Shown one piece after another: positions 12,501-64,000 of a stretch of DNA of 64,000 nt. The notes under the pieces were generated by a model. It did no database searches, had not been told where the DNA came from, and saw only the letters and a list, made by a program, of their open reading frames with translations. Numbering within the stretch: position 1 is the stretch's first letter; each line of letters starts with the position of its first letter. A program made the position numbers and the translations under genes. This DNA is from Rozella allomycis CSF55 (taxonomy: Eukaryota), in NCBI GenBank assembly GCA_000442015.1, contig KE561047.1, forward strand, positions 203,341-267,340, read 5' to 3'.

Positions 12501-15500
12501 CGTTGTTGTCTGATATTTACAAGATTAATAAATTGATTAAACCAGTCACTGGAAAAGATGTTGATTATATGATTGCTGTTACTGCTAGCAATGAATTGGA
12601 AGAAATGAGAAGTCGCATTTTAGATAAAGTTCGCCAAGTGTTGGAAAAATGTCATGAATACAAAGAAACGTTTGATCAGTTTGCTTATCTGTGGATTGAG
12701 AACAGACAAGATTTCTTGAAACAATTTGTTAAACAATTAAAGCAAAAGTTTGTGCAAGATGGATCTCCAGAAGAAGATTTTGTTGCTCCATTGTATCTGG
12801 ATCAATTTGAACAGCAAATTAAGAAATATGAAGATATTCACAAGACTGTTATGAGTTTGGAAGGCGATGTCACATTTTATGGCTGGTTTAAGATTGATGC
12901 CAAGCCACTGAAGCAAGCGTTGAATTTGGTAGTAAAGAAATGGTCGTATACATTGTCTAAATATTTGAGTGATGAGACAATAAAAACGTTGAATGAATTG
13001 AATTCGTTTATTAAGAGCACCAAGAAGGGACTGCAAGTGAAACCAGTTGAGGGTGATTATAGTGCGCTTGTGGCATCGATGGGATTGTTGTTGGCAGTGA
13101 AGCATAGATCGTCAATTGATAATTTGTTTGAGCCGCTGAGAAAGACTGTGAATTTATTAAAGCATCATGGAGTAGATACACCAGAAGAAGTGTTTAAATT
13201 TCTGAGTGATTTACCTGAAGAATGGAGTGATGTGAAGAAGATGGCTGTTGCGATGCGTGATTATGTAGCACCTTTGCAAGCACAAGAGGTTGATTCATTG
13301 CAAAAGAAGTGTAACACGTTTGAATACAAGATGCATTTGTTTAGAGAAGAATTTCGCAACAAGGCGCCATTTAAGTTTGATGTTGGGATTGAAAAGTGTT
13401 ACGAGTTGATAGATCAATGCCATGTTGATGTTTTGATAATTGAGAGTGAAGCAGCTGCAATGAAGTCGTCGGCTGATTTGTTTGAATTGGTTATACCGAG
13501 TTTTAAGCAGTTGGGAGATTGTAGAAGGGATATTGGAATGTTGAAGAGTTTGTGGGATTTGATTTCAATGGTGACGTATTTGTTTAATGAGTGGAAATCT
13601 ACGTTGTGGAATCAAATTGATACTGATGCGTTGGAAATCAGGTGTAGAGATTTGATGAAAGAGTTGAGAAAATTTGACAAGGAAATTAAAGGTAACTTTA
13701 CAATGTTTATTTAATATAGGTAATGTTGAAACTGGTTTATTATTAAAGGATGGGATGCGTTTAATGGATTGGATCAGATGGTGAAGGATATGATAACATC
13801 GTTGAGAGCAGTTGGAGAATTGAGAAGCAATGCAATTAGAGACAGACATTGGAAACAGTTGATGAAGACAACTGGAGTGACATTTACTTTAACAACAGAT
13901 ATGAAGTTTCAAGATTTGTTGAGTTTGCAGTTGCATAAATATGAAGATGATGTCAAGGGGATTGTGGATAGAGCTACGAAAGAGTTGAGTATGGAGAAAG
14001 TGTTGGGAGAGTTGGAAAAGACTTGGAATGTTATGGAATTCACCTATGAAGTTCATGACAGAACAAAAACACCCTTGTTAAAGTCATCTGAAGAATTGAT
14101 TGAAATATTGGAAGACAATCAAGTGTTGTTGCAGAATATGATGACATCAAAGTATGTTGCTTATTTCTTGGAAACAATTTCCAAATGGCAGAATATTCTG
14201 TCTACAGTTGATACAGTTGTTACGTTGTGGTTGGAAGTTCAAAAGACGTGGAGCCACTTGGAAAACATTTTCATTGGATCTGAAGACATTAGAACTCAAT
14301 TGCCAGAAGATACTAAAAGATTTGATGGAATTGATTCTGATTATAAGAAATTAATGGCTGAAGCATCGAAAACACCAAAGACTATTGAAGTTTGTTTGAA
14401 ACCTTCGTTATTTGAAACTTTGGAATCTTTGCAAGGTCAATTAGCGTTATGTGAAAAGAGTTTGGCTGAATATTTAGAAACAAAGAGACTTGCATTTCCA
14501 AGATTCTATTTCATTTCTAGCAGGTAATTTACTAAATAAGTGCTTAAATAAAGTGATTTGTTGGATATTCTAGCTAGAGGTAATCAACCACAAGCAGTGG
14601 CTATTCATTTACCAAAATTATTTGACAATTTAGCTGGCTTAAAGTTTAAAGGCGGCGCTGATTCTAAAACAGCTATTGGAATGTTTTCAAAAGAAGATGA
14701 ATATGTAGAGTTTTCAGAAGAATGTGAATGTGTTGGACCAGTTGAAGTTTGGTTAAACAGAGTTGTTGATGTAATGAGAAAGACATTGCGTCATTTAATG
14801 TCAGAGGCTGTTGTTACTTATGAAGAGAAGCCGCGTGAACAATGGCTGTTTGACTATCCAGCACAGATTTCTCTAGCTGGAACTCAAATTTGGTGGACAA
14901 CTGAAGTCAATGCTGCTTTTGCTAGGCTAGAAGAAGGCTATGAAAATTCATTGAAAGATTATTACAAGAAACAAGTTAATCAATTAACTGCTTTGATCAC
15001 TTTGATTCAGGGTGAATTAACTAAAGGGAATAGACAAATGATTATGACTATTTGTACGTTGGATGTTCATGCGCGTGATATTGTGGCAAAATTGATTTCT
15101 GAAAAGGCTGATAATGCTCAGTGTTTTAATTGGCAGTGTCAATTGAGATTGAAATGGGATGAAGAACAAACTGATTGTATTGCCAATATTTGTGATGCTT
15201 CGTTTCGTTACTCTTATGAGTATCTAGGAAACACTCCCAGACTTGTTGTGACTCCATTAACTGATAGATGCTACATTACATTAACACAATCTATTCATTT
15301 AATTATGGGTGGTGCACCTGCTGGTAATTTAATTCGTTATGATTGTAATTAAAGGCCCTGCTGGAACAGGAAAGACAGAGACTGTTAAAGATTTGGGTAG
15401 AGCATTAGCTATTATGGTGTATGTGTTTAATTGTTCAGAACAAATGGATTACAAATCTATTGGAAATATTTTCAAGGGATTGTCACAGTCTGGCACATGG

Positions 15501-18500: not shown

Positions 18501-21500
18501 TATTCCTGGACTGTTTCCGGATGAAGATTATGAGAATATTATTAATGCGATGAGGAATGAAGTTAAAGCTTTGGGACTTATTGATACGAGAGAAGCTTGT
18601 TGGGATTTGTTTATCAAGACTGTTAGAAAGAATTTAAAAGTAAATTGAATTTAAATGTTTAAAAAAGGTTGTGTTGTGTTTTAGTCCAGTTGGAAGTGCA
18701 TTGAGAAACAGATGCCGAAAGTTCCCAGCAATAGTTAATTGTACAATGATAGATTGGTTTTCGGAATGGCCGCAGGAAGCATTGTTGAGTGTAGCGCAGA
18801 GATTTATTGATAATTGTGATTTGGTGCCCCAAGAGTTGAAAGAGAGTGTTACAAAATTCATGGCGTTTGCGCATCAGAGTGTGAATGATGTGAGCAAAAA
18901 GTATTTGGAGAATGACAAGAGATACAATTATACAACACCCAAGAGCTTTTTAGAGTTGATTAATTTGTACAAGATAATGTTGGAAAAGAAGTCTACAGAG
19001 TTGCTGTCTAGTATGGAGAGATTGGAGAATGGGCTGGCTAAATTGCAGAGCACGGCGTCGCAGGTTGATGATTTGAAAGCAAAGCTTGCGAGCCAGGAGG
19101 TTGAATTGAGAGCCAAGAATGAGGAAGCTAATAGATTGATTGAAAGGGTTGCGATTGATACAGAAAAGGTTAATAAAGAAAAAGCTATTGCTGATGAAGA
19201 GGAGAGAAAGGTTGATGCGTTTGCAAAGGAAGTAGCAGAGAAGCAGCGCCAGTGTGCAGAAGATTTGCGGGCAGCTGAGCCAGCATTGGCAGCAGCAGAG
19301 GAAGCGTTGAATACATTGAACAAGGCTAATTTAACAGAACTGAAATCATTTGGATCGCCAACAGATGAAATTAAGAATGTAGTGGCGGCTGTTATTGTGT
19401 TGTTGTCTCCACCGGGAAAGATTGCCAAGGATAGATCATGGAAAGCTGGGAAAGCAATCATGGCCAAGGTGGATCAATTTTTGGAAACATTGATTAAATT
19501 TGACAAGGAGAATATAGACAAGAGTAATTTAGAGGCATTGGCACCGTATTTGAGTGATCCCAATTTCAATACAGAGTTTATAAAGACAAAGTCAGCGGCT
19601 GCAGCTGGGCTGTGTGGATGGGTGATTAATATAGTAAAGTATTTTGAAGTTTACTGTGATGTTGAGCCCAAGAGGAAAGCGTTGGAGCAAGCTAATTTGG
19701 ATTTGAGTGTAGCGCAGAATAGACTGGCAGAGATTCAGAATAAGATTATGGAGTTGAATAAGAATTTGAGTGATTTGAAGGCTAAATTTGAGAAAGCGAC
19801 GGCTGATAAATTGAGGTGTGAAGAAGAAGCAAAGAGAACGCAGGAAACTATTATATTGGCTAATAGGTTAGTTGGAGGGTTGGCGTCTGAGAATGTTAGA
19901 TGGGCTATTTCTGTGGACAAGTTTAAAGAGCAGCAGAAAACATTAACAGGTAATTTTAGTAGGTTTGATTTAATTAGGTATTTTAATAAACTTTCTATGA
20001 TGATTAGGTGATGTGTTACTAGCAGCAGCGTTCTTGTCTTATGTTGGATGTTTTACCAAGAAATATAGAACAGAGTTGATAACAGAGAAATGGTTGCCAT
20101 TTTTGAATGATCCCAGCAACAATATTCCCATGAGTTCTGATATTGATGCATTGAAGATATTGACTAATGATGCAGAGATAGCCAAGTGGTGTAATGAAGG
20201 GCTGCCGAATGATAGAGTGTCATTAGAGAATGCGACTATTTTTGTTAATTGCAAGAGATGGCCATTGATTATAGATCCGCAGTTGCAGGGGATTAGATGG
20301 GTGAAGAATAGAGAAAAGAATTTGAGAATAGTGAGACTTGGACAGAGAGGGTATTTGGATGTGATTGAGAAAGCAGTGAGTTCAGGGGATGTAGTGTTGT
20401 TGGAGGATATTGGTGTTAATTTGGATCCAGTGTTGGATGCTCTAATTGGAAGGAATACGATTAAAAAGGGAAAGTATATAAAGATTGGAGACAAGGAAGT
20501 TGAATATGATTCAAACTTTAGATTGATACTGCAAACGAGAATAGCCAATCCACATTATCCACCTGAAATACAAGCGCAAACTAGTTTGATTAATTTTACA
20601 GTGACGATTGCAGGGCTGGAAGATCAGTTGTTGGCTGATGTTGTTAATTCAGAGAGACCAGAACTAGAAAGAACCAAGGCAGAGTTGACTAAACAGCAAA
20701 ATGAATTCAAGATTAAATTGACAGAGTTGGAAGATTCGTTGTTGAGTAGACTGAGTGCAGCAGAGGGCAACTTTCTTGGTGATTATGCGCTTGTGGAGAA
20801 TTTGGAAACGACCAAGAGAACAGCGACAGAGATTGAAGTGAAAGTGGAGGAAGCTAAAAAGACTGAAAAGAAGATTAACGAGACGAGAGAGTTGTATCGA
20901 CCAGTGGCTGCACGGTCGTCATTGTTGTATTTTCTGTTGAATGATTTGAACCAGATTAATCCAATGTACCAGTACTCGCTAAATGCGTTTAAAGTTGTGT
21001 TTCAAGCTGCGATTAATTCAGCTGAAAAGAGTGAAGAGTTGAAGGAGCGTGTGTTTGCGTTGATTGACAATATAACATTTTCAGTGTTCAAATATACCAC
21101 TAGGGGGTTGTTTGAAAGAGATAAATTAATCTTTGTGACTCAAATGACGTTTTCTATATTGAAGCATCAGAATGATATAGATTTGGAGCAATTAGATTTT
21201 CTGTTGAGAGGCCCAGTGATATTGAATGTGAATAGTCCTGTTGAATGGTTGAATAACAATTCATGGGGGATGGTCAAGGCATTGTCTAATTTAGACTCAC
21301 TGAAGATTCTAGCGAGTGATATTGAGAATTCATCAAAGAGATGGAAAAAGTATTGCGAACATGAATCACCTGAAAATGAAAAGCTTCCACAAGAGTGGAA
21401 GAACAAGACTGCTTTAGAAAAACTTTGTATTATTAGAGCATTGAGACCTGATAGATTAACTTATGCTGTGAGAAATTTTGTTAAAGAAAAGATGGGCACA

Positions 21501-23493: not shown

Positions 23494-24801
23494 TTATTGC
23501 TGCATTCTGGATGTGGCAGATTGAGTTAATTCCCTTTTAATCTCCTTTGAAATCAAATAATGCTCCTTTTTGCCAGCAAGACTCAATAGAACCTCCTTTT
23601 GTTCATCTGTTAAATCATCCTTGTATCTAATCAACCAAAACATAATCAAACAACCTTTGACAAAACACTAGAAACGCTTGATGCCACAGAACAGGCAATT
23701 CACGAGAATCATTCGCAAATCTCGCAAAATGATACACCAATGAATCAATAACTTGGAACGGCATCGCATATTTCTTGTCCAAAAGACATTTAATAAATAT
23801 ACTACATGCTGGTGAATAGTCCATCTCGGCAAGTTTCAGTAAAGCTGCACTGGAATGCAACACGGGAATGCTCACCTTGGTTATCACGGAGCCTACTATT
23901 GTCGCCTCACGCAGTGTGCATTGGTCTTCAACTAACGGGAGTATGATACCCTTGAAAAAGGCCGCTGGCTTGTACACTGATTTCTTTAAGGCATTGTATA
24001 AATGCACGTTAAGTTTTGATGTTTCTTTAATATTTATACGCACATGTTCAAGCAAAATGTTGAAATAGAATCTATTCATCAAATACGTAATAAATTACAC
24101 TTGGGACATTCTGGCGTTCAAGTTGGATGCGAATATTCTTGTGGCTTCATAGACAGCATGCGGTGTCCATTCCATCGGATTAGTTAAAGCCAGAACAGAT
24201 TCCCTGCTGAATGCAAATCAACATTATTACCAGTTCTTTAATGAAGGAATAACCTTGAAAGCTTTGGGCAATTTGCCGCTTTTATATCTAGACAAGAGCA
24301 GCCCAACTTTGGAGTAAACTTGGACTATCTTTGGATGCAGATTTGAATTCTTGGCAGCCTCAGTCTGTGGCAAATTGATTCTATCGACCAACTGGTCAGC
24401 CTGGATTCCACTCACAAACTGGTTGAATATTTGCTCCTCCTGTGGATCTATTGTATTCGCATTTTCGTCTTCATAGTCACTCCATTCGTCATCAACTTCA
24501 TTGTCACTGTCCACGGCCATTGTCGATTCAAACACGGCCGGCATCTCCATCTTGTCTTTTGATGATTTATTTTCTTCGTCAAAAATTTCTTCTTGCTGTT
24601 TCTTTACAGCCTTCATTATTCTTTTTGATGTGACGGCGTCTATCTAGAGTTTCGTTTTAAAGAATTTGGTACCACATTTTCTTCCAAATCGGAATCAGAT
24701 TCTTGGTTTTTGGTTTTATTCTTCATTGTGACATATGTATCACGCTCTAACTGGGCCTGCAAAGGAGGCAAACGCTTGGAAGAAGATTTGCGAATTTTCA
24801 T
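23494..24801 (-). CDS. ENP1: Bystin / Enp1
   Basis: [52 protein letters not shown]. Confidence 0.93.
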
Positions 24802-24813
24802 TATTACAGGGGT

Positions 24814-25235
24814 ATGCACGGGTGCAGCTTGGAACCAGCTATTTTTGCACATTTGAGCTGCAGAAACGGTAGGAGAAGGTTACTGGCAAAGTAAATGTAT
24901 TAAATTGGGTTTAAAAAGGTACGAAAATTATGTTTCTTGGAAAGCAGAGTTTTACCGATTACGCTCAACGAACCTATTGCGATTGAACTAGCTATAAATG
25001 AAAAAAAGAGATCGATTTTAATTTGTGATACTTCATTAATTGAAAATGGTTTGTTGGAAAATGAAGTCTACTTCTTTATTGGTGATGTTGATTGGGTAGA
25101 AATTTTGAAAAAATATTCTAGGAAAAAAGATATTTCAATATCAAAGTTGCGAGAAGAGTAAATATTAAATGGCCAGATGATGTTCTTGTTTGGCAAAAGG
25201 TAGCATCAAAGGTCCTTCACTATGGAAATTCTTAA
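24814..25235 (+). CDS. Small OB-fold-like protein, possibly TEN1 (CST complex)
   Basis: Spliced ~110 aa: MHGCSLEPAIFAHLSCRNGRRRLLAKVLPITLNEP...ILICDTSLIENGLLENEVYFFIGDVDWEKRYFNIKVARRV...; resembles the Ten1 pattern by eye only. Confidence 0.4.
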
Positions 25236-25346
25236 ATCGTTATTCGTCACAGTTGTATAGTATTTATTTTCACCGCTTTGAATTGTTTCAAAGGCTTATT
25301 GCTCCTTGGGTACCTTAAATAAATTTTGTTTCGGATATTTCTTGTC

Positions 25347-25856
25347 ATGGAACTGGATGTAGGGAGACAGTGTTCTTTAAAATCTTGCAAACAACTAGAT
25401 TTTTTACCTTTTAAATGCCCCGCTTGTAGTCTTAGTTTTTGGTAAAAATAGAAGTGATTATAAAGTAGCGAAAATCACTGGAAGCCTGGTGACCATAGTT
25501 GCGTGAAACGAAGAGAATATGAACTCAAGAGAGACAACAAAACGATAGACTGTCCTGTTTGTTCGTTACCGATATCAATTCCATTTGGCCAAGATCCGAA
25601 TATTTATGTGGATGAACATATAAGAAAAGGTTGCAAGAAAGTTGAAATTTACCCTCACAAATGCAGTGTTGAAAAATGCAATCAGAAAGTGGCAGTGCGC
25701 ATTAAATGTAAAAATTGCAATAAAAATTATTGCTTAAAACACAGATTTCCTGGTGACCATAATTGTGCAAAGAAAGTAAGTAATGTAAATAACACCGATA
25801 CATGTGGGATTCAACAAGTCTCGCAGTGCTCGTTAAATCGGACGGGGAGTTTCTAA
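25347..25856 (+). CDS. AN1-type zinc finger protein (ZFAND2/AIRAP-like)
   Basis: MELDVGRQCSLKSCKQLDFLPFKC, CPVCSLPI...DPNIYVDEHI, CKNCNKNYCLKHRFPGDHNC. Confidence 0.88.
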
Positions 25857-26015
25857 TTAATAAAAATTTCTTCACACAAAACAACTGTTTTCTATCGTGA
25901 TCATTTTNGGGCTACAAATTTTATCTTTTAATATAATTTTATAATCGATTGCATAATAATTAATATAATTTTATAATCGATTGTATACGTTTTAAGATTC
26001 GCTACACTATGGGAN

Positions 26016-28043
26016 TAATGCAATAGAAGGAATATTGAAGAGATTGAATATGGAATATGCGCATGAATATACGATTCCTGTTGAATTGAAGAAAGTATAT
26101 TCGAAGTGTGACAGTCCAGTGATAGGGAGTCCGGAGCACCAAGAAATGAAAGATGTACCATACAANAAGAGTGTAGACGATGTTGTTAGATATATTGAAA
26201 CAAAATATAAAATAAATTTATTAGGAAAGATTAACTGGTTCTTGGGAAAAGGAATTGAAAGAGATGGAAATGAATTGAGAATGAGTCAAAAGAGTGCAAT
26301 AGAAGGAATATTGAAGAGATTTAATATGGACGATGCGAATGAATATACAATTCCTGTTGAACTGAAGAAAGTATATTCGAAGTGTGACAGTCCAGTGATA
26401 GGGACTCCGGAGCACCAAGAAATGAAAGATGTACCATACAGACAAGCAGTCGGAAGTTTGATTTATTTGGCGAAGTGTACAAGACCAGATATAGCATATG
26501 CAGTGAGTCTTGCGAGCAGATTCTTATCGAATCCAGGGAAAGAGCATTGGTTGTTAGTCAAGCGAATCCTCAGATACTTAAAATACACTAAAGAATATAG
26601 TTTAATAATGGATGGAATAAATGAAGATAAATTTATTTGTCAAGGATATGTTGATGCCGATNAAGTGTAGAAGACGTTGTTAAATAAATTGAAACGAAAA
26701 ATAAAATAAATTTATTAGGAGAGATAAACTGGTTTTTGGGAATAGCAATTGAAAGAGATAGAAATGAATTAACAATGAGTCAAACGAGTGCAAAAGACGG
26801 AATATTGAAGAGATGTAATATGTAAGATGCGAATGAATACACGATTCCTGTTGAACCGAAGAAGGTATACTCGAAGTGTGACAGTCCAGTGATAGGAAGT
26901 CCGGAGCACCAAGAAATGAACGATGTACCATATTGCCAGGCAGTTGGAAGTTTGATTTATTTAGCAAAGTGTACAAGACCAGATATCGCNGTAAAACCAT
27001 GCGAATCATAGTAGAAGAAAAAGAAGCAAAGTCTGGGTGCCAACCAGTTCACAAGAAGATTACCGAAGCTTTTGGTAAGAAAAGAAAATCAAGCACTACA
27101 TCTCTAAATGAACATGACACGACCACCGATGTAGTCCTTAAACCAACCAATAATGAAGTTAACTCATCCACTGAGAAGGATCTTTTATTGAAAATTTATN
27201 CGCATATGAATTAAGTCTTGCGAGCAGATTCTTATCGAATCCAGTGAAAGAGCACTGGTTACTAGTCACGCGAATTCTCAGATACTTAAAATACACAAAA
27301 GAATACCGTTTGATAACGAATGGAATAAATGAAGATAAATTTATTTGTCAAGGATATGTTGATGCCGNTAAAGGATAATGTTGCTCCACCTGTGAATATG
27401 ACTCCAGCCGCTGAAGTACCTCTAGCTGATGTTAAGACCAGATAGAGCATATGCAGTGACTCTAGCATTGGTTGTTAGTCAAGCGAATTTTCAGATACTT
27501 AAGAAACACTAAAGAATATAGTTTGATAATGAATGGAATAAATGAAGATAAATTTATTTGTCAAGGATATGTTGATGCCGATTGGGCGGCTGACAATGAA
27601 TCAAGAAGAAGTATCTTTTCAAGATAAATGGAAACTAAGTATCATGGAAAAGTCAAAGGCAAGCAACAGTAGCACTATCAACAGTTGAAGCGGAATATAT
27701 GGCATTATCAAGCGCATAGCAGGAACCATTGTGGATTAACAGTTTAATGAGTGAATGGGAGATATCTTTTGAANACATTATGGATTAAGAGTTGAATGGG
27801 TGAATTGGAGATAACTTTTGAAGCGGAATTAAGTTGTATGAAGATAACAAAGGAGCGATAGCATTGACCAAAGANTAGCAGGAACCATTGTGGATTAACA
27901 GTTTAATGAGTGAATGGGAGATATCTTTTGAAGGGGGATTTAAGTTGTATGAATACAATAAAGGAGCGATAGCTTTGACCAAGGAAACGAGCGGGAGAAG
28001 TAGGAGCAACCACATTGACATCAGGTATCACTTCATTACCGCT
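26016..28043 (+). mobile_element. Ty1/copia LTR retrotransposon pol fragments (RT C-terminus, RNase H), degenerate and internally duplicated
   Basis: PYRQAVGSLIYLAKCTRPDIAYAVS, KRILRYLK, GYVDADWA, ALSTVEAEYMALS, YEDNKGAIAL, HIDIRYHF; several partial copies separated by single Ns. Confidence 0.92.
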
Positions 28044-38339: not shown

Positions 38340-41300
38340 ATGGAACAAAATTTTAACGACGTCAAGAAGTCGTTAAATAAGTTGAATGCTTTCAAGACAT
38401 TACCGAAATTGGATTCTACTATATCTTCCGTCTTCATAGATGAGGAAGATCCAACTACGGTATTCGATCAAATAGTACTACTATCCATCAGCATTAATAA
38501 AAAGGATTCTTCCATATTTCCACCAATACTCAAAAGACAGAGTTGGACGTTACTGTCTCCATACAAAGAGGAAAGGCACCATAGGGCCGTCAGTGATTCA
38601 ATAGCAAACAATTACAGTCCCCGGGCCATGTTTCTAAACACTAGATCTTTACCAAAAAGTAGAGTTAAAAAAAGTAACGTAGAAATATAAGAATGATAGC
38701 TAATTTTATAACGAAAAGAACAAGTTTGTCAGCAGGAAAAATTACATTGTTACCTTTATCACCCAGTAGACCAATGTCTCCATGTGAAAGATTGAAACTT
38801 CATTCCTCTCAGTTTGATTTCACCACAGTATTTACAGAGGATTACAATGGCAAAGAAAACAATTCTCATAAAAGATATTGGCATTACATTGAGCAAGGTG
38901 TTCCTGACAGTTTACTTCCTGCATTTGAATCCCATGGATTCGATTTTTCCAAAAGAATGCCAAAAGAAATCAAAAACAGAGAGGAACTAGGCTTGCTAAT
39001 GGAAGAGATTAAGAAAGATTATGTACTTTCAATTAAAAGGTCAATTGTTGATTACGTATTACTTGATGCGACCGAAAGAAAAAGGCTTGATATATCTTCA
39101 GTACCCAGGATGTTTAAAGACTTTATACCAATTAGAGCACCTGTTCCTTGGAGTGAAACTATTCAGACGGCAAAGGCTTTTCTTGAATGTAACTTGTTTG
39201 TGACCAACCCGGTGATGACAAAGTTGTTGGAAATATTTGATGCCTACTAGAATATAAGAATAATTGATATGAGTGTATTTCAATCGGAGAGCGATTTTAA
39301 AATTCAAGTGGGCAAGAACGAATTGACACAAAACTATTCAAATGCCCCAACAATCACAGTGGATTCGATGATAGAAAACTCATTTTCAAGTCAAAAAATT
39401 AAGCGAATTCCTCTTACAACTGGAGAATTTCAGTCTATTATTCGTGAGCAATGTAAAGAATTTCGACAAGTGATATTGACAAAGTAATACAACAATGTTA
39501 TTAATATCGTTAGATGGTTGCCAGAAATTATTCAAGTGTTCATTGAAATGAAATCCACGTGGTATTCAATAGTGACAAGTAGAAATGGTTCTGATGAGTC
39601 ATATGATCTTCTTGACTCCTTTTTCCGTTCCGTTGCAACTTTAATGTCGAATCAATTGTGGGAAACGTTAAATAATTCAATCGATGATTTTGAAAAGTTT
39701 ATTTTTACTTTTGAGCAAAATGAGAATCAGAATGGACTCTTTAAGATTAATCTAACATTGTCTGGGTCGTCTGTGAGATTTGAACCAGCGCTAAACGAGG
39801 TTGAAAATGTTTTAATTCAAACGATGGAGGAAATTTCAAAAGCGGTTATCGAAATACCTAGAGTTGAAACAAAGTTGTTTACGAGTCTTCAAAATGAGAA
39901 TATTTTTCTCTCTACCATTTCTTTAGATGATCCCAGAATAGTGGAGTGCACTGAATTGCGTAATACGTTTGCCAGAAATTATGTTGAGCCACAAAGATAC
40001 ATATTGCAATATGAAAAATTTAAAGCATTGATGACTCAAAAAGCAGATCGGAAAATAGAAGATTTCATAAAAGAGAGGCATGATTTGGATGAATATGAAA
40101 CGGAAATAAATAAGTTAATGAAAACTAGAATTGAAATCAATTCTTTGCCTTTGTCTATTTCATTCAGTATGATCAATTTAGATTGCAATGCTTTGGCAGA
40201 GGATTTATTGAATAGAACAAGAGCATTAATTGACAAATTAGTTGAGCAAATTTTATCGAAAGCGAGAGAAGACAATTCTCAGTAAAGTTAATTTCATTTA
40301 ATTGATAGGATTTGTGAAAAATTTGAACAAATTTCTGCAAAAGTTATGAAAGTGCCTTCAACTACTGAAGAACTTTGTGAATTAATAAACTATTTAGACA
40401 AAAATTCAGCCGATGAAACGACTGGATTGAAAGAAGAAATTTATAGAGGAATTAAAAGGATTAACTTTTTGCTTAATTATGCGCAGTTAACAGAAGAGGA
40501 TATAAAGTTGAATAGCGTTACGATGACATGGCCAGAGAGAATAGGTCCAATATTTGATCTTAGCAAAAAGCGTCTTGTTCAAAAGAAAACCAAGGCGCAA
40601 GAAGAAGTGAAAATTAAGTCTCAAAATTTGGAGGCGGAAGTAGAAAGTTTACTTGACATTGTTTACAAATTTCAAGATTGTGGGATTTTATCGGAAACAA
40701 ATGAATATGTAAAGAAACTCAGATCAATTGAAATCAAAATTGATGAACTTTCATTTAAAATCAAGGAAATTAATAAAGAAGAAGAATTGCTGGAATTTGA
40801 TCTAAGCCCCTTTGGAAAATTTGAGGAAGCAAAAGAAGCATTGGGGCCATTTAAGCTTTTATGGGATTCAGTTTCAACATTTCAAAATGAGTACAATAGA
40901 TGGATGACAAGTGCTTTCATTGAATTAGATGCCCACCAAATTGATGAACAAGTAGGGAACTTGTACAAATCAATACTAAAATTAACAAAAACATTTAAAG
41001 ATTTAGCAGTTCCAAGGAAGGTCTCTGAACAAATTAAAAACAAAATTGAAAAATTCAAAGCGTATATTCCCTTGATCACAATTCTAAGATCGCCAGGGTT
41101 GAAGAATAGACATTGGAAAGAAATGAGTGATGTTGCTGGAGTTGATATGACACCTGATGAAGAAACAACTTTATCAACATACCTTGAGATGGATTTAAGC
41201 GCACATATTCCAAAATTTGAAGAAATATCTGAGGTTGCAATGAAAGAATTCAACTTTGAAAAGACATTGGCTAATATGATGGAAGAATGGAAAAATATGA

Positions 41301-41755
41301 CTTTTAATCACATGCCTTATAGAGATTCAGGAACTTTTACTTTAACTGCACAAGAAGATCTTCAGGCTTTAATGAACGATCAAATCATCAAAATACAAAC
41401 GTTGAAGAATTCTCCACTAGCTAGAAACCTAGAAGATTTAATTGCAGAAAGTGAACAAACGTTGATGAATATTAAAGAAACTTGGAACGAATGGCTCAAA
41501 GTTCAGTCTGGTTGGTTACGTTTAGAACCGATTTTCAGTTCTGAAGAAACGTCGCAACAAATGCCCCTAGAGAGTCGTAATTTTAAACAAGTTGATAAAA
41601 TATGGAGAGAAATTATGACTCAATGCTTGGAAACACCCGAAATACTGATTATGATAAAGACGCCAAATCTATTGGAGAAATTAAAGGAATGCAACTCTTT
41701 GATCGAAGAAATTCAAAAAGTACGCAACGAGCAGAATCATGAAACTCCTCAATAA
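38340..41755 (+). pseudogene. Inner-arm dynein heavy chain (DNAH3/7/12 class) N-terminal tail only; no motor domain; in-frame TAG at 39248
   Basis: IKRSIVDYVL, PVPWS, PGLKNRHW, WLKVQ..W..LEPIFSSE; ORF ends just after EEIQK, before the usual GL..YLE.KR..FPRF; 3 micro-introns. Confidence 0.65.
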
Positions 41756-44695: not shown

Positions 44696-45119
44696 ACTTG
44701 CCTGCGCCACAGAGATCGCTATGATGATATTATAGGGTGATGACATGCTTGAGAATTTCTATGGTTTGAATTAAAAACGATCTTGAAAAAGATAGGAAAG
44801 ATATATACTGACTTGACTTGAGTCACCCTGGAATTAGAATTTACGTTTCTTCAAATTAATACTTTTGACGGTCGAAGTTCGACTGTCAAAAGTTAATGTT
44901 TTTTCTTTGGAAATGGGAGTCGAGGTTTTAAGTTTTCAACAAGGACGTTAAGACGTATGTGTTAATTTTAGCAAGGTAAGTTTGGAGTAAGACTTGAGTT
45001 TTAGAGGGAAAATATATGGTCGCGGGAAAATCAAAATTTTAGTCAATTCAATAGTGTATAATCTATTTAATAGATATTTAATTTGTTCATTCGAAATAGT
45101 TTTAGGAAATTTCGCTTCA

Positions 45120-61744: not shown

Positions 61745-64000
61745 ATGAGTGATTTTTCGTTTCTTGATTTTGCTGCGAATACACAAGCGTCTCAATACGG
61801 ATATCCTGCTCTGACACAAGAGCCTGGTGTTTCTGATGATTTGACGCTTGCTTCACTCACACTGAACGACTCTCTGACGCAGCCTACTGGCGCCTCCTTT
61901 TTCAAAAGTTTGGATGATGAAGAGGAAGTGGAAGAAGAGGGCTTTGATTTTTCTGATCTACCAGCCCATTGCTGCAAGTACTATTTAAGATTCAAAACAA
62001 TGTAGGTATTGTGGAATACATAATCCAAAGTCGGTATTGAAATGTTTGACATGCCAGAAATGGTTTTGTAACTGTTCAGGAAATTCAAAGGGAACGCATA
62101 TAGTGCAGCATCTAGTGAGAGCGAAGCACAAGGATGTTTGTTTGCATGCGGATTCCCTTTTGGGAGATACTGTGCTTGAGTGTTATAATTGTGGATGTAG
62201 GAATGTGTTTCTGCTTGGGTTTATACCAGCTAAGAGTGATATGGTGGTAGTTATTTTGTGTAGACAGCCATGTGCGAGTGGATCGTCAAAGGATATGAAT
62301 TGGGATCTGTCACAGTGGCAGCCTATTATTGAGAATAGAGCGTTTTTGGACTGGATTGTGATACCCCCGACGAAAGAGGAGATTGCTAGATCAAGAAAGA
62401 TTACACCTGGAAAGATTGCTAAACTTGAAGAGTTGTGGCAAACGAAGCCTGAAGCTGAATTGGAGGACTTGGAAAAGCCTGGCATTGATGAAGAGCCTAA
62501 TCCAGTGCAATTAAAGTAATTTAAGAATGTGAAATATTATAGATATGATGATGCATTTCAGTATCAAGAAATATTTGCACCGTTGGTTAAATTAGAAGCT
62601 GAATATGATAAGAAAGTGAAAGAATCGCAAACACAAGATGATATTGTGATTAGATGGGATACGACAACTAGTTCAAAGACATCGATAGCGTGGTTTGTGT
62701 TTTCAAAGTTGGATAATGATATAAGATTAGCTACGGGCGATGAATTAAGAATAAAATATAAAGGAGAATTGGCTAAAGGATGGGAGAGTGTTGGATTGGT
62801 TGTTAAAGTTCCAAATAATCAAAGCGAAGAGATTGGAGTTGAATTGAAGAGATCAAATAACACTCCAACTTATTTAACACATGGATTCTCTGTAGAATTT
62901 GTATGGAAAAGTACTCCCTTTGACAGGTAAATCAGTAGTAGTTTGATTATAGGATGTTGAAGGCTTTGAAAACATTTTCTTTGGATGATAATTCAGTTTC
63001 TAATTACATTTATCATTTAGTGTTGGGACATGAAGTTCCAGTTCAAGTTTTAAAGGCAAATTTACCAAAACGATTTTCAGCGCCAAATCTACCAGAACTG
63101 AATCATTCGCAAGTGTATGCAGTGAAAACTGTTTTACAAAGACCATTTAATCTTATTCAAGGCCCACCAGGTAATTTAATGAATAAAAGTTGAATAAAGG
63201 AACTGGAAAGACTGTTGTGTCAGCTTCTATTGTTTATCATTTGGCAAAGTCAGGTGGTGGTCAAGTGTTGGTGTGTGCTCCTTCCAATGTTGCTGTTGAT
63301 CAACTTTCAGAAAAGATTCATTCCACAGGATTGAAGGTTGTTAGAATCACAGCCAGAAGTAGAGAAGCTCTAGATTCACCAGTTTTGTTTCTTTCTCTTC
63401 ATGAACAAGTTAGAAACTACAAGGGTAATCCAGAAGCAACAAAGTATTTCACACTTAAAGAAGAACAAGGCCATTTAAATGCTGCAGATGAAAAGAAATT
63501 TAGACAAGCGAAAAGTGCATCTGAAATGGATATTCTTAGAAATGCTGATGTTATTTGTTGTACTTGTGTTGGAGCTGGTGACCCTAGATTAAGAAAATTT
63601 AGATTCAAAGCTGTTTTGATTGATGAAGTCACTCAAGCTGCTGAACCAGAATGTTTGATTCCTTTAGTTTCTGGTGCTAGACAAGTTATTCTTGTTGGTG
63701 ATCATCAACAATTGGGTCCAGTGATTATGAGTAAAAAAGCATCAAATGCTGGTTTAAATCAATCTTTATTTGAAAGACTTGTTTTGTTAGGAATCAAACC
63801 AATTAGATTACAAGTTCAATATCGATCTCACCCCTGTCTTTCTGAATTCCCTTCAAATATGTTCTATGAAGGTTCTTTACAAAATGGTGTTACTTCAAAT
63901 GAAAGATTAAGAAAAAATGTAGATTTCCCTTGGCCTGTGCCTGAAAATCCAATGTTCTTTTATTTGACTTTGGGTCAAGAAGAAATTTCACCTTCTGGAA
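61745..64000 (+). CDS. UPF1: UPF1/NAM7 NMD RNA helicase, 5' part (runs off window)
   Basis: CH domain ([20 protein letters not shown]), [29 protein letters not shown]. Confidence 0.97.

What the first reader, a model, noticed from the sequence alone, without database searches (positions are those of the whole stretch)
24891..24947. Third doubled intron, in an unrelated small gene
Seen: GTAAA...AAAAG (24891-24918, 28 nt) plus GTACG...AGCAG (24919-24947, 29 nt). Removing both joins RRLLAK to VLPITLNEP in frame; removing only the first leads to a stop. Three of three long introns share this architecture, so it may be genome-wide. This gene model is less secure than the dynein.
Basis: partly seen in the sequence, partly recalled or inferred. 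Interest (0 to 1): 0.75.

Follow-up and report, generated by a model that had tools for sequence, protein, structure and literature searches.

The report
Back-to-back mini-introns in an unannotated gene
In the parasitic fungus Rozella, whose introns are almost all 26-31 bases long, a small overlooked gene is interrupted by two complete mini-introns joined end to end, which are probably cut out one after the other, although no RNA data were available to show it.

Summary
The two GT..AG units are at the stated coordinates, and only removal of both keeps the frame from ATG 24814. A gene model trained without this gene picks the pair (posterior 0.99 among 8,261 models). Shuffles rarely match it: 175 of 20,000 and 1 of 5,000. 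On the 304-kb contig, zero-length exons number 11, against 0 exons of 1-10 nt, among 418 internal exons.

Corrections: the second unit may end at 24944 (26 nt) rather than 24947, and a third intron (25096-25121) may exist. Weak points: exon 1 scores no better than shuffled DNA, its ATG is 12 nt from the bystin ATG, no homologue or RNA was found, and a TEN1-like identity is only a lead.

Best reading: two separate spliceosomal cuts, like recursive splicing at a zero-nucleotide exon, forced by a narrow intron-length window (about 0.6). The scan has already noted such stacks elsewhere in this genome; this is one more, less secure, case.

The parts
24814..24890 (+). Putative coding exon 1, from the only ATG that reaches the exon-2 frame in a well-scoring model
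   Evidence: Start posterior 0.997. Coding score -0.4, equalled by 526 of 1,000 shuffles; ATG only 12 nt from the bystin ATG. Weakest part of the model.
24891..24918 (+). Mini-intron unit 1, 28 nt, GTAAA..AAAG, two in-frame TAA
   Evidence: Log-odds 9.18, 66th percentile of 460 training introns; GTAAA is the commonest donor, 119 of 460.
24917..24920 (+). Internal AG|GT junction (zero-nucleotide exon)
   Evidence: Seen directly; interior-shuffle null 175 of 20,000.
24919..24947 (+). Mini-intron unit 2, GTACG.., ending at AAAG 24944 (26 nt) or GCAG 24947 (29 nt); both keep the frame
   Evidence: Log-odds 6.41 / 5.89, 11th / 8th percentile; posteriors 0.62 / 0.37. AAAG ends 102 and GCAG 10 of 460 introns.
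24948..25095 (+). Exon 2 (starts at 24945 if the nearer acceptor is used); no Met in its frame
   Evidence: Coding score 6.8, near the median 7.7 of real coding pieces; 7 of 1,000 stop-free shuffles score as high.
25096..25121 (+).
   Evidence: Log-odds 5.45, 6th percentile; posterior 0.20.
25122..25235 (+). Possible exon 3, ending at TAA; carries a TEN1-like C-terminal residue spacing
   Evidence: Coding score 4.5, 57 of 1,000 shuffles as high; spacing pattern in 3 of 167 control proteins.
23494..24801 (-). Neighbour: bystin gene, head to head with the small gene
   Evidence: Pfam Bystin; 100% identical over the query to P0002, named Rozella allomycis bystin, 398 aa; conserved N-terminal motif fixes the start at 24801.
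25347..25856 (+). Neighbour: ZFAND2-like AN1 zinc-finger gene
   Evidence: Pfam zf-AN1 and zf-C2H2_ZFAND2; model.
13692..13748 (+). Reference stack 1 in the dynein heavy chain, 28+29 nt
   Evidence: Only 57 nt keeps the frame; Pfam DHC_N2 runs on across it, positions 2-61 then 60-320.
19950..20007 (+). Reference stack 2 in the dynein heavy chain, 28+30 nt
   Evidence: Only 58 nt keeps the frame; Pfam MT runs on across it, positions 1-314 then 312-344.

Best explanation
The stretch is the first intervening sequence of a small, unannotated protein-coding gene (96-113 aa, possibly TEN1-like), made of two complete spliceosomal mini-introns with a zero-nucleotide exon between them. The spliceosome of this organism appears to pair splice sites only over about 26-31 nt, so a 54-57-nt stretch is removed in two ordinary reactions. 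Either order is open: cutting unit 1 puts exon 1 next to the intact donor of unit 2; cutting unit 2 puts the acceptor of unit 1 next to exon 2. Both half-spliced RNAs carry early stops, so they would be finished or degraded. Shown: sequence anatomy, frame logic, narrow length window, excess of zero-length exons. Inferred: that the gene is expressed, that exon 1 is right, that removal is stepwise, and the protein's identity.
For: Only double removal keeps the frame. 445 of 460 modelled intron units are 26-31 nt; the density, 455 sites in 187 kb, is near the 2.53 per kb given for R. allomycis in PMC8476143 (passages). Models not trained on this gene select the pair, also with no special prior for abutting introns. 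Posterior 0.997 of 393 models and 0.991 of 8,261 models that allow long and GC-AG introns; two units beat one long intron by 9.6 nats with priors removed. Nulls: 175 of 20,000 and 10 against 0.4; 1 of 5,000 shuffles of the upstream 146 nt give a tandem model as good. Zero-length exons 11 against 0 of 1-10 nt among 418. Two homology-anchored stacks lie in the dynein of the same window. Exon 2 looks coding and has no Met in frame, so it needs an upstream exon.
Against: Exon 1 is not distinguishable from shuffled DNA (526 of 1,000) and lies between the 5th and 25th percentile of real first exons. Its ATG is 12 nt from the conserved bystin ATG, closer than all 42 modelled head-to-head gaps (minimum 17). 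165 of 5,000 upstream shuffles give some model, tandem or not, as good as the real one. Unit 2 is weak (8th-11th percentile) and ends in a tandem acceptor, seen at only about 4 of 460 introns. No homologue in Pfam, the PDB or 1.84 billion representatives, although the neighbouring bystin is on record, so the gene seems unannotated. Posteriors depend on my self-trained model, whose first intron set came from the dynein, stack units included.
Confidence: 0.6

Rival explanations
1. The gene is as modelled, but the 54-57 nt are removed in one cut; the inner AG|GT is a relic of how the intron grew.
For: No intermediate has been seen. A model allowed to use long introns long single introns on the contig. 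The inner donor is rare, GTACG 3 of 460.
Against: The two units share no more similarity than unrelated introns (43 of 77 and 74 of 111 same-length introns score as high), yet both keep signals and length. None of the 8 long calls whose flanks I scanned had one Pfam family on both sides; one is re-read as two short introns by the short-only model.
Confidence: 0.16
2. Exon 1 is wrong or there is no working gene: the units lie in promoter or leader DNA, or the locus is decaying, and the pair is a chance or left-over pattern.
For: Neutral coding score of exon 1 and 12-nt ATG-to-ATG gap; no homologue or annotated product; at this score 0.4 of 10 pairs per contig are expected by chance.
Against: Exon 2 is coding-like (7 of 1,000) and has no Met; the pair restores its frame from the nearest free ATG; 'no gene' has posterior 0.003. 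Modelled head-to-head gaps of 17, 24 and 30 nt exist.
Confidence: 0.18
3. Only unit 1 is an intron. Unit 2 is coding (it is stop-free in the exon-2 frame), and the frame is set by an upstream GC-AG intron (24847-24872) or by a one-base error in the assembly of exon 1.
For: The GC-AG model is open from 24814 to 25161; unit 2 is the weaker unit.
Against: Posterior 0.001; all models with unit 2 coding sum to 0.0015. Unit 2 scores -1.8 as coding against +5.9 to +6.4 as intron. A base error was not tested.
Confidence: 0.04

Closest known systems
Recursive splicing at a zero-nucleotide exon in fungi: C. neoformans BOT1 intron (375 nt = 210 + 165; bioRxiv 10.1101/224170, passages) and S. pombe SPNCRNA.445 intron (336 nt; bioRxiv 10.1101/226894, passages)
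   Same: An intervening sequence is two complete introns with a 3' splice site directly against a 5' splice site.
   Different: There, one or two cases per genome, in introns of hundreds of bases, shown in RNA. Here the whole stretch is 54-57 nt, each unit has the genome's normal size, about 2% of intron sites are stacks (10 of 554), and there is no RNA evidence.
Ratchet points of Drosophila and vertebrate long introns (PMC8605326, passages)
   Same: AG|GT junction that leaves no trace in mRNA.
   Different: Ratchet points lie in long introns and need a cryptic exon of about 50 nt with its own donor. Here unit 2 is 26-29 nt, which points to intron definition.
Fungal stwintrons (abstract of PMC6616335 in the listing; PMC7138796 passages)
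   Same: Complex intervening sequence of two U2-type introns removed in two steps, in a fungal lineage.
   Different: In stwintrons one intron is nested in the other, usually inside a splice signal, which fixes the order. Here the units abut and each has intact ends.
TEN1 / RPA14 small OB-fold proteins (host-gene lead; PMC3691326 passages)
   Same: Size of the three-exon model (112-113 aa); hydrophobic residues at 0, +1, +4, +5 and Tyr at +11 near the C-terminus, and an Arg 76-77 residues earlier, as for human L104, L105, A108, I109, Y115 and R27; STN1 is in the genome.
   Different: No Pfam, PDB or structural match was obtained; an equivalent of R119 would lie beyond the stop. The first resemblance was recalled from memory.

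Membership tests
Recursive splicing (zero-nucleotide exon) | 3' splice site directly followed by a 5' splice site inside an intervening sequence | tested here: met
   AG|GT at 24918/24919; null 175 of 20,000.
Recursive splicing (zero-nucleotide exon) | Each sub-intron carries its own usable signals | tested here: met
   66th and 8th-11th percentile of 460 introns, both of normal length. No positional branch consensus is visible in this genome's introns, so branch points were not assessed.
Recursive splicing (zero-nucleotide exon) | The whole stretch is intronic, flanked by exons of one transcript | tested here: inconclusive
   Model posterior 0.99, but exon 1 has no independent support.
Recursive splicing (zero-nucleotide exon) | Half-spliced intermediates or unit lariats seen in RNA | not testable with these tools
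   No RNA holder listed; the one added run gave no cover of 24269-25900.
Recursive splicing (zero-nucleotide exon) | Inner junction conserved in related species | not testable with these tools
Drosophila-type ratchet point | Located in a long intron | tested here: not met
   Total length 54-57 nt.
Drosophila-type ratchet point | Cryptic exon of about 50 nt with its own downstream donor | tested here: not met
   Only 26-29 nt follow the inner junction before exon 2; feature as described in PMC8605326.
Stwintron | Internal intron nested in the other, interrupting its donor, branch element or acceptor | tested here: not met
   Both units have intact GTA.. starts and AG ends; the base before unit 1 is A and the base after unit 2 is C or A, so the G|GT and AG|G splits are not available. 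A split branch element could not be assessed.
TEN1 (host gene) | Match to Pfam Ten1 / Ten1_2 | tested here: inconclusive
   No match for single exons or the read-through frame. Genome-wide family searches found no candidates and their controls did not ring. The spliced protein was not scanned.
TEN1 (host gene) | Single OB fold with C-terminal helix | tested here: inconclusive
   Single-sequence model of a partial read-through has pLDDT 34.7, too low to use.
TEN1 (host gene) | Interface residue spacing (R27; L104, L105, A108, I109, Y115; R119) | tested here: inconclusive
   Pattern present in the three-exon model; in 3 of 167 control proteins, 2 of 167 with the Arg. Chosen after seeing the sequence; R119 has no counterpart.
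TEN1 (host gene) | STN1 partner in the same genome | tested here: met
   PF10451 at G000:C690:57564-57926, E 1.4e-7, over cut-off. This makes a TEN1 gene likely somewhere, not necessarily here.

The most novel reading that the evidence does not exclude
The Rozella spliceosome works as a fixed-length ruler that cannot span much more than about 33-38 nt, so introns can lengthen only by adding whole units and every longer intervening sequence must be removed unit by unit. This locus would show that the rule reaches a small housekeeping gene, possibly the missing telomere protein TEN1 that gene finders overlooked because of the stack, and that a weak second unit could throttle its expression by sending half-spliced RNA to nonsense-mediated decay.
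Probability: 0.3. Interest if true: 0.8.

Novelty: new variant of a known kind. Interest (0 to 1): 0.52.

Why it matters
Recursive splicing is described for long introns and a few fungal introns of hundreds of bases. Routine stacking of minimal introns would make the question of how a spliceosome measures intron length, and how new introns arise next to old ones, directly testable. Five paper searches bearing on it (also 79) listed no paper on such stacks in Rozella; the library lacks most subscription journals. This locus adds two things to the earlier notes: a stack in a tiny non-flagellar gene, and a hint that stacks hide genes from annotation. Its short span suits one RT-PCR. As evidence it is weaker than the dynein stacks.

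Tried and rejected
RNA: no RNA holder listed. The one added run X1 gave only 80-95% matches to conserved dynein parts, likely other organisms, and no cover of the small gene; no evidence either way.

Homologues of the small gene: none. The metagenome hit L002 is a bacterial IMP dehydrogenase-like ORF (my reading of its translation; not scanned), a chance match. Atlas look-alikes (ADP-ribosyltransferase-like clusters, recognition 1864, below 2300) and PDB rows at E 0.58-1.3 were rejected as noise. Family searches for Ten1_2, Ten1 and RPA14 found no candidates and their controls did not ring. The fold model was unusable (pLDDT 34.7) and its search gave one row at Z 2.2.

RNA structure: none beyond shuffles for the focal or dynein stacks (z 0.14-0.60). 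Recent tandem duplication as origin of this stack: rejected. A later bystin start that would free room for a promoter: rejected. An intron at 24812-24838: 1st percentile. Long single introns: flanks of 8 of 10 calls scanned, none confirmed. One search timed out and was redone. No complex prediction was run.

Full report
Setting. The window is G000:C699:203341-267340 in an 11.86-Mb genome. The neighbouring bystin is 100% identical over the query to a protein named Rozella allomycis bystin, so the organism is that parasitic fungus relative. PMC6349667 (passages) mentions ~30-nt introns in it, and PMC8476143 (passages) gives 2.53 introns per kb.

Observation. The two units are as described: 24891-24918 (28 nt) and 24919-24947 (29 nt), each GT..AG, abutting. 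From ATG 24814 only removal of both gives an open frame. The locus lies between bystin (minus strand) and a ZFAND2-like gene.

Yardstick. The dynein heavy chain has 15 intron sites. Two need 57 and 58 nt, each splitting at AG|GT into 28+29 and 28+30, and Pfam profiles run on across both. I trained a gene model on 264 kb, starting from long ORFs and the dynein introns and leaving the focal gene out. It gave 460 intron units, 445 of them 26-31 nt, at 455 sites in 187 kb of coding sequence, near the published density. The model is my own and self-trained, so its posteriors are conditional.

Is the pair more than chance? Unit 1 is at the 66th percentile of those introns; unit 2 at the 11th (26 nt) or 8th (29 nt). 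Interior shuffles reach the observed score in 175 of 20,000 (57 nt) and 96 of 20,000 (54 nt); the dynein stacks give 2 and 30 of 20,000. Pairs this good number 10 on the 304-kb contig against a mean of 0.4 in 20 shuffles. With no special prior, 11 of 418 internal exons have length zero and none has 1-10 nt, so abutting introns are a class of their own and not the tail of micro-exons.

Is it inside a gene? Exon 2 scores like coding DNA (7 of 1,000 stop-free shuffles as high) and its frame has no Met. Among 393 models the tandem pair has posterior 0.997 and 'no gene' 0.003. Among 8,261 models with long and GC-AG introns it has 0.991, one long intron 0.00005, and unit 2 as coding 0.0015. Shuffling the 146 nt upstream of exon 2 gives a tandem model as good in 1 of 5,000 cases, but some model as good in 165 of 5,000. 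Against: exon 1 is neutral (526 of 1,000). Its ATG is 12 nt from the bystin ATG, which is fixed by a motif shared with 81 homologues; the smallest of 42 modelled head-to-head gaps is 17 nt. The transcripts would have to overlap or have very short leaders. No homologue was found and no RNA.

The end of unit 2 is a tandem acceptor: AAAG at 24944 or GCAG at 24947, both in frame, 0.62 against 0.37. A possible third intron, 25096-25121, would extend the protein to 112-113 aa (posterior 0.20). That form reminded me of TEN1 (recalled, a lead). It shows the residue spacing given for human TEN1 in PMC3691326 (passages), found in 3 of 167 control proteins, and STN1 is in the genome. No profile or structure test confirmed it. 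The paper's alignment is a supplementary picture that I could not see, and it bears on this lead. I put TEN1-like at about 0.4.

'All long introns are stacks'. A model allowed long introns called 534 short singles, 10 stacks and 10 long singles on the contig, none of the last in this window. Flanks of 8 of the 10 were scanned and none showed one family on both sides; one falls into two short introns under the short-only model. So the rule holds here and is open elsewhere.

Mechanism. Most likely each unit is recognised across the intron by a spliceosome with a narrow length window and removed in its own reaction, in either order; half-spliced RNAs have early stops. This step is inferred. The two units are no more alike than unrelated introns, so this stack is an old duplication or an intron gained at the edge of another. 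A stack 58 kb away has two 29-nt units differing at one base, which shows that duplication does build stacks. No RNA structure stands out.

Comparison. It works like recursive splicing at zero-nucleotide exons, shown in C. neoformans and S. pombe (passages) and in flies (passages). It is not a fly-type ratchet point (no long intron, no room for a cryptic exon) and not a stwintron (no nesting; listing, 56 passages). Membership in recursive splicing proper needs RNA. Searches listed no paper on stacks in Rozella; bioRxiv supplements were closed and subscription journals are mostly absent. Earlier notes of this scan report stacks of 2-6 units on other pieces of the genome; I reproduced those on this contig only.

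Verdict. Real sequence feature; about 0.8 that it is a two-unit intron in a working gene, about 0.6 that it is also removed stepwise. New variant of a known kind, already noted by the scan. Interest 0.52.

Noticed in passing
G000:C699 108243-108296 (-), 127451-127505 (+), 173297-173354 (-), 188191-188246 (+): Four more modelled two-unit stacks, in genes of 125-710 aa; not checked by homology.
   Followed up: partly
G000:C699 284058-284114, 285417-285473, 286276-286361 (-): Three stacks in a 4,528-aa gene beyond the window's end; the last has three units, two of them 29 nt and differing at one base. One unit starts with GTACG like unit 2 here.
   Followed up: partly
G000:C690:57564-57926 (L028): STN1 gene, modelled with four short introns.
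   Followed up: partly
window 44947-45006: Weak candidate stack (29+31 nt, GTTAA donor), called only before training.
   Followed up: partly
window 25996-27214: Retrotransposon reverse-transcriptase fragment (Pfam RVT_2, below cut-off) with scattered N; a direct repeat of about 30 nt near 25926-25986 and a repeated block in 26020-26440 seen by eye.
   Followed up: no
window 61989-62927: UPF1 domains, so nonsense-mediated decay is probably present, which bears on the fate of half-spliced RNA.
   Followed up: no
264 kb of C699, 460 modelled introns: Lengths start sharply at 26 nt (111 units; none at 23-25), 28% of acceptors have A at -3, there is no positional branch consensus, and NAG directly after an acceptor occurs in 3 of 460. 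Partly shaped by the model.
   Followed up: partly
window 39269-41755: A modelled 810-aa gene with a dynein DHC_N2 domain that ends without motor domains, next to a signal peptide peptidase fragment; possibly truncated or mis-assembled.
   Followed up: no
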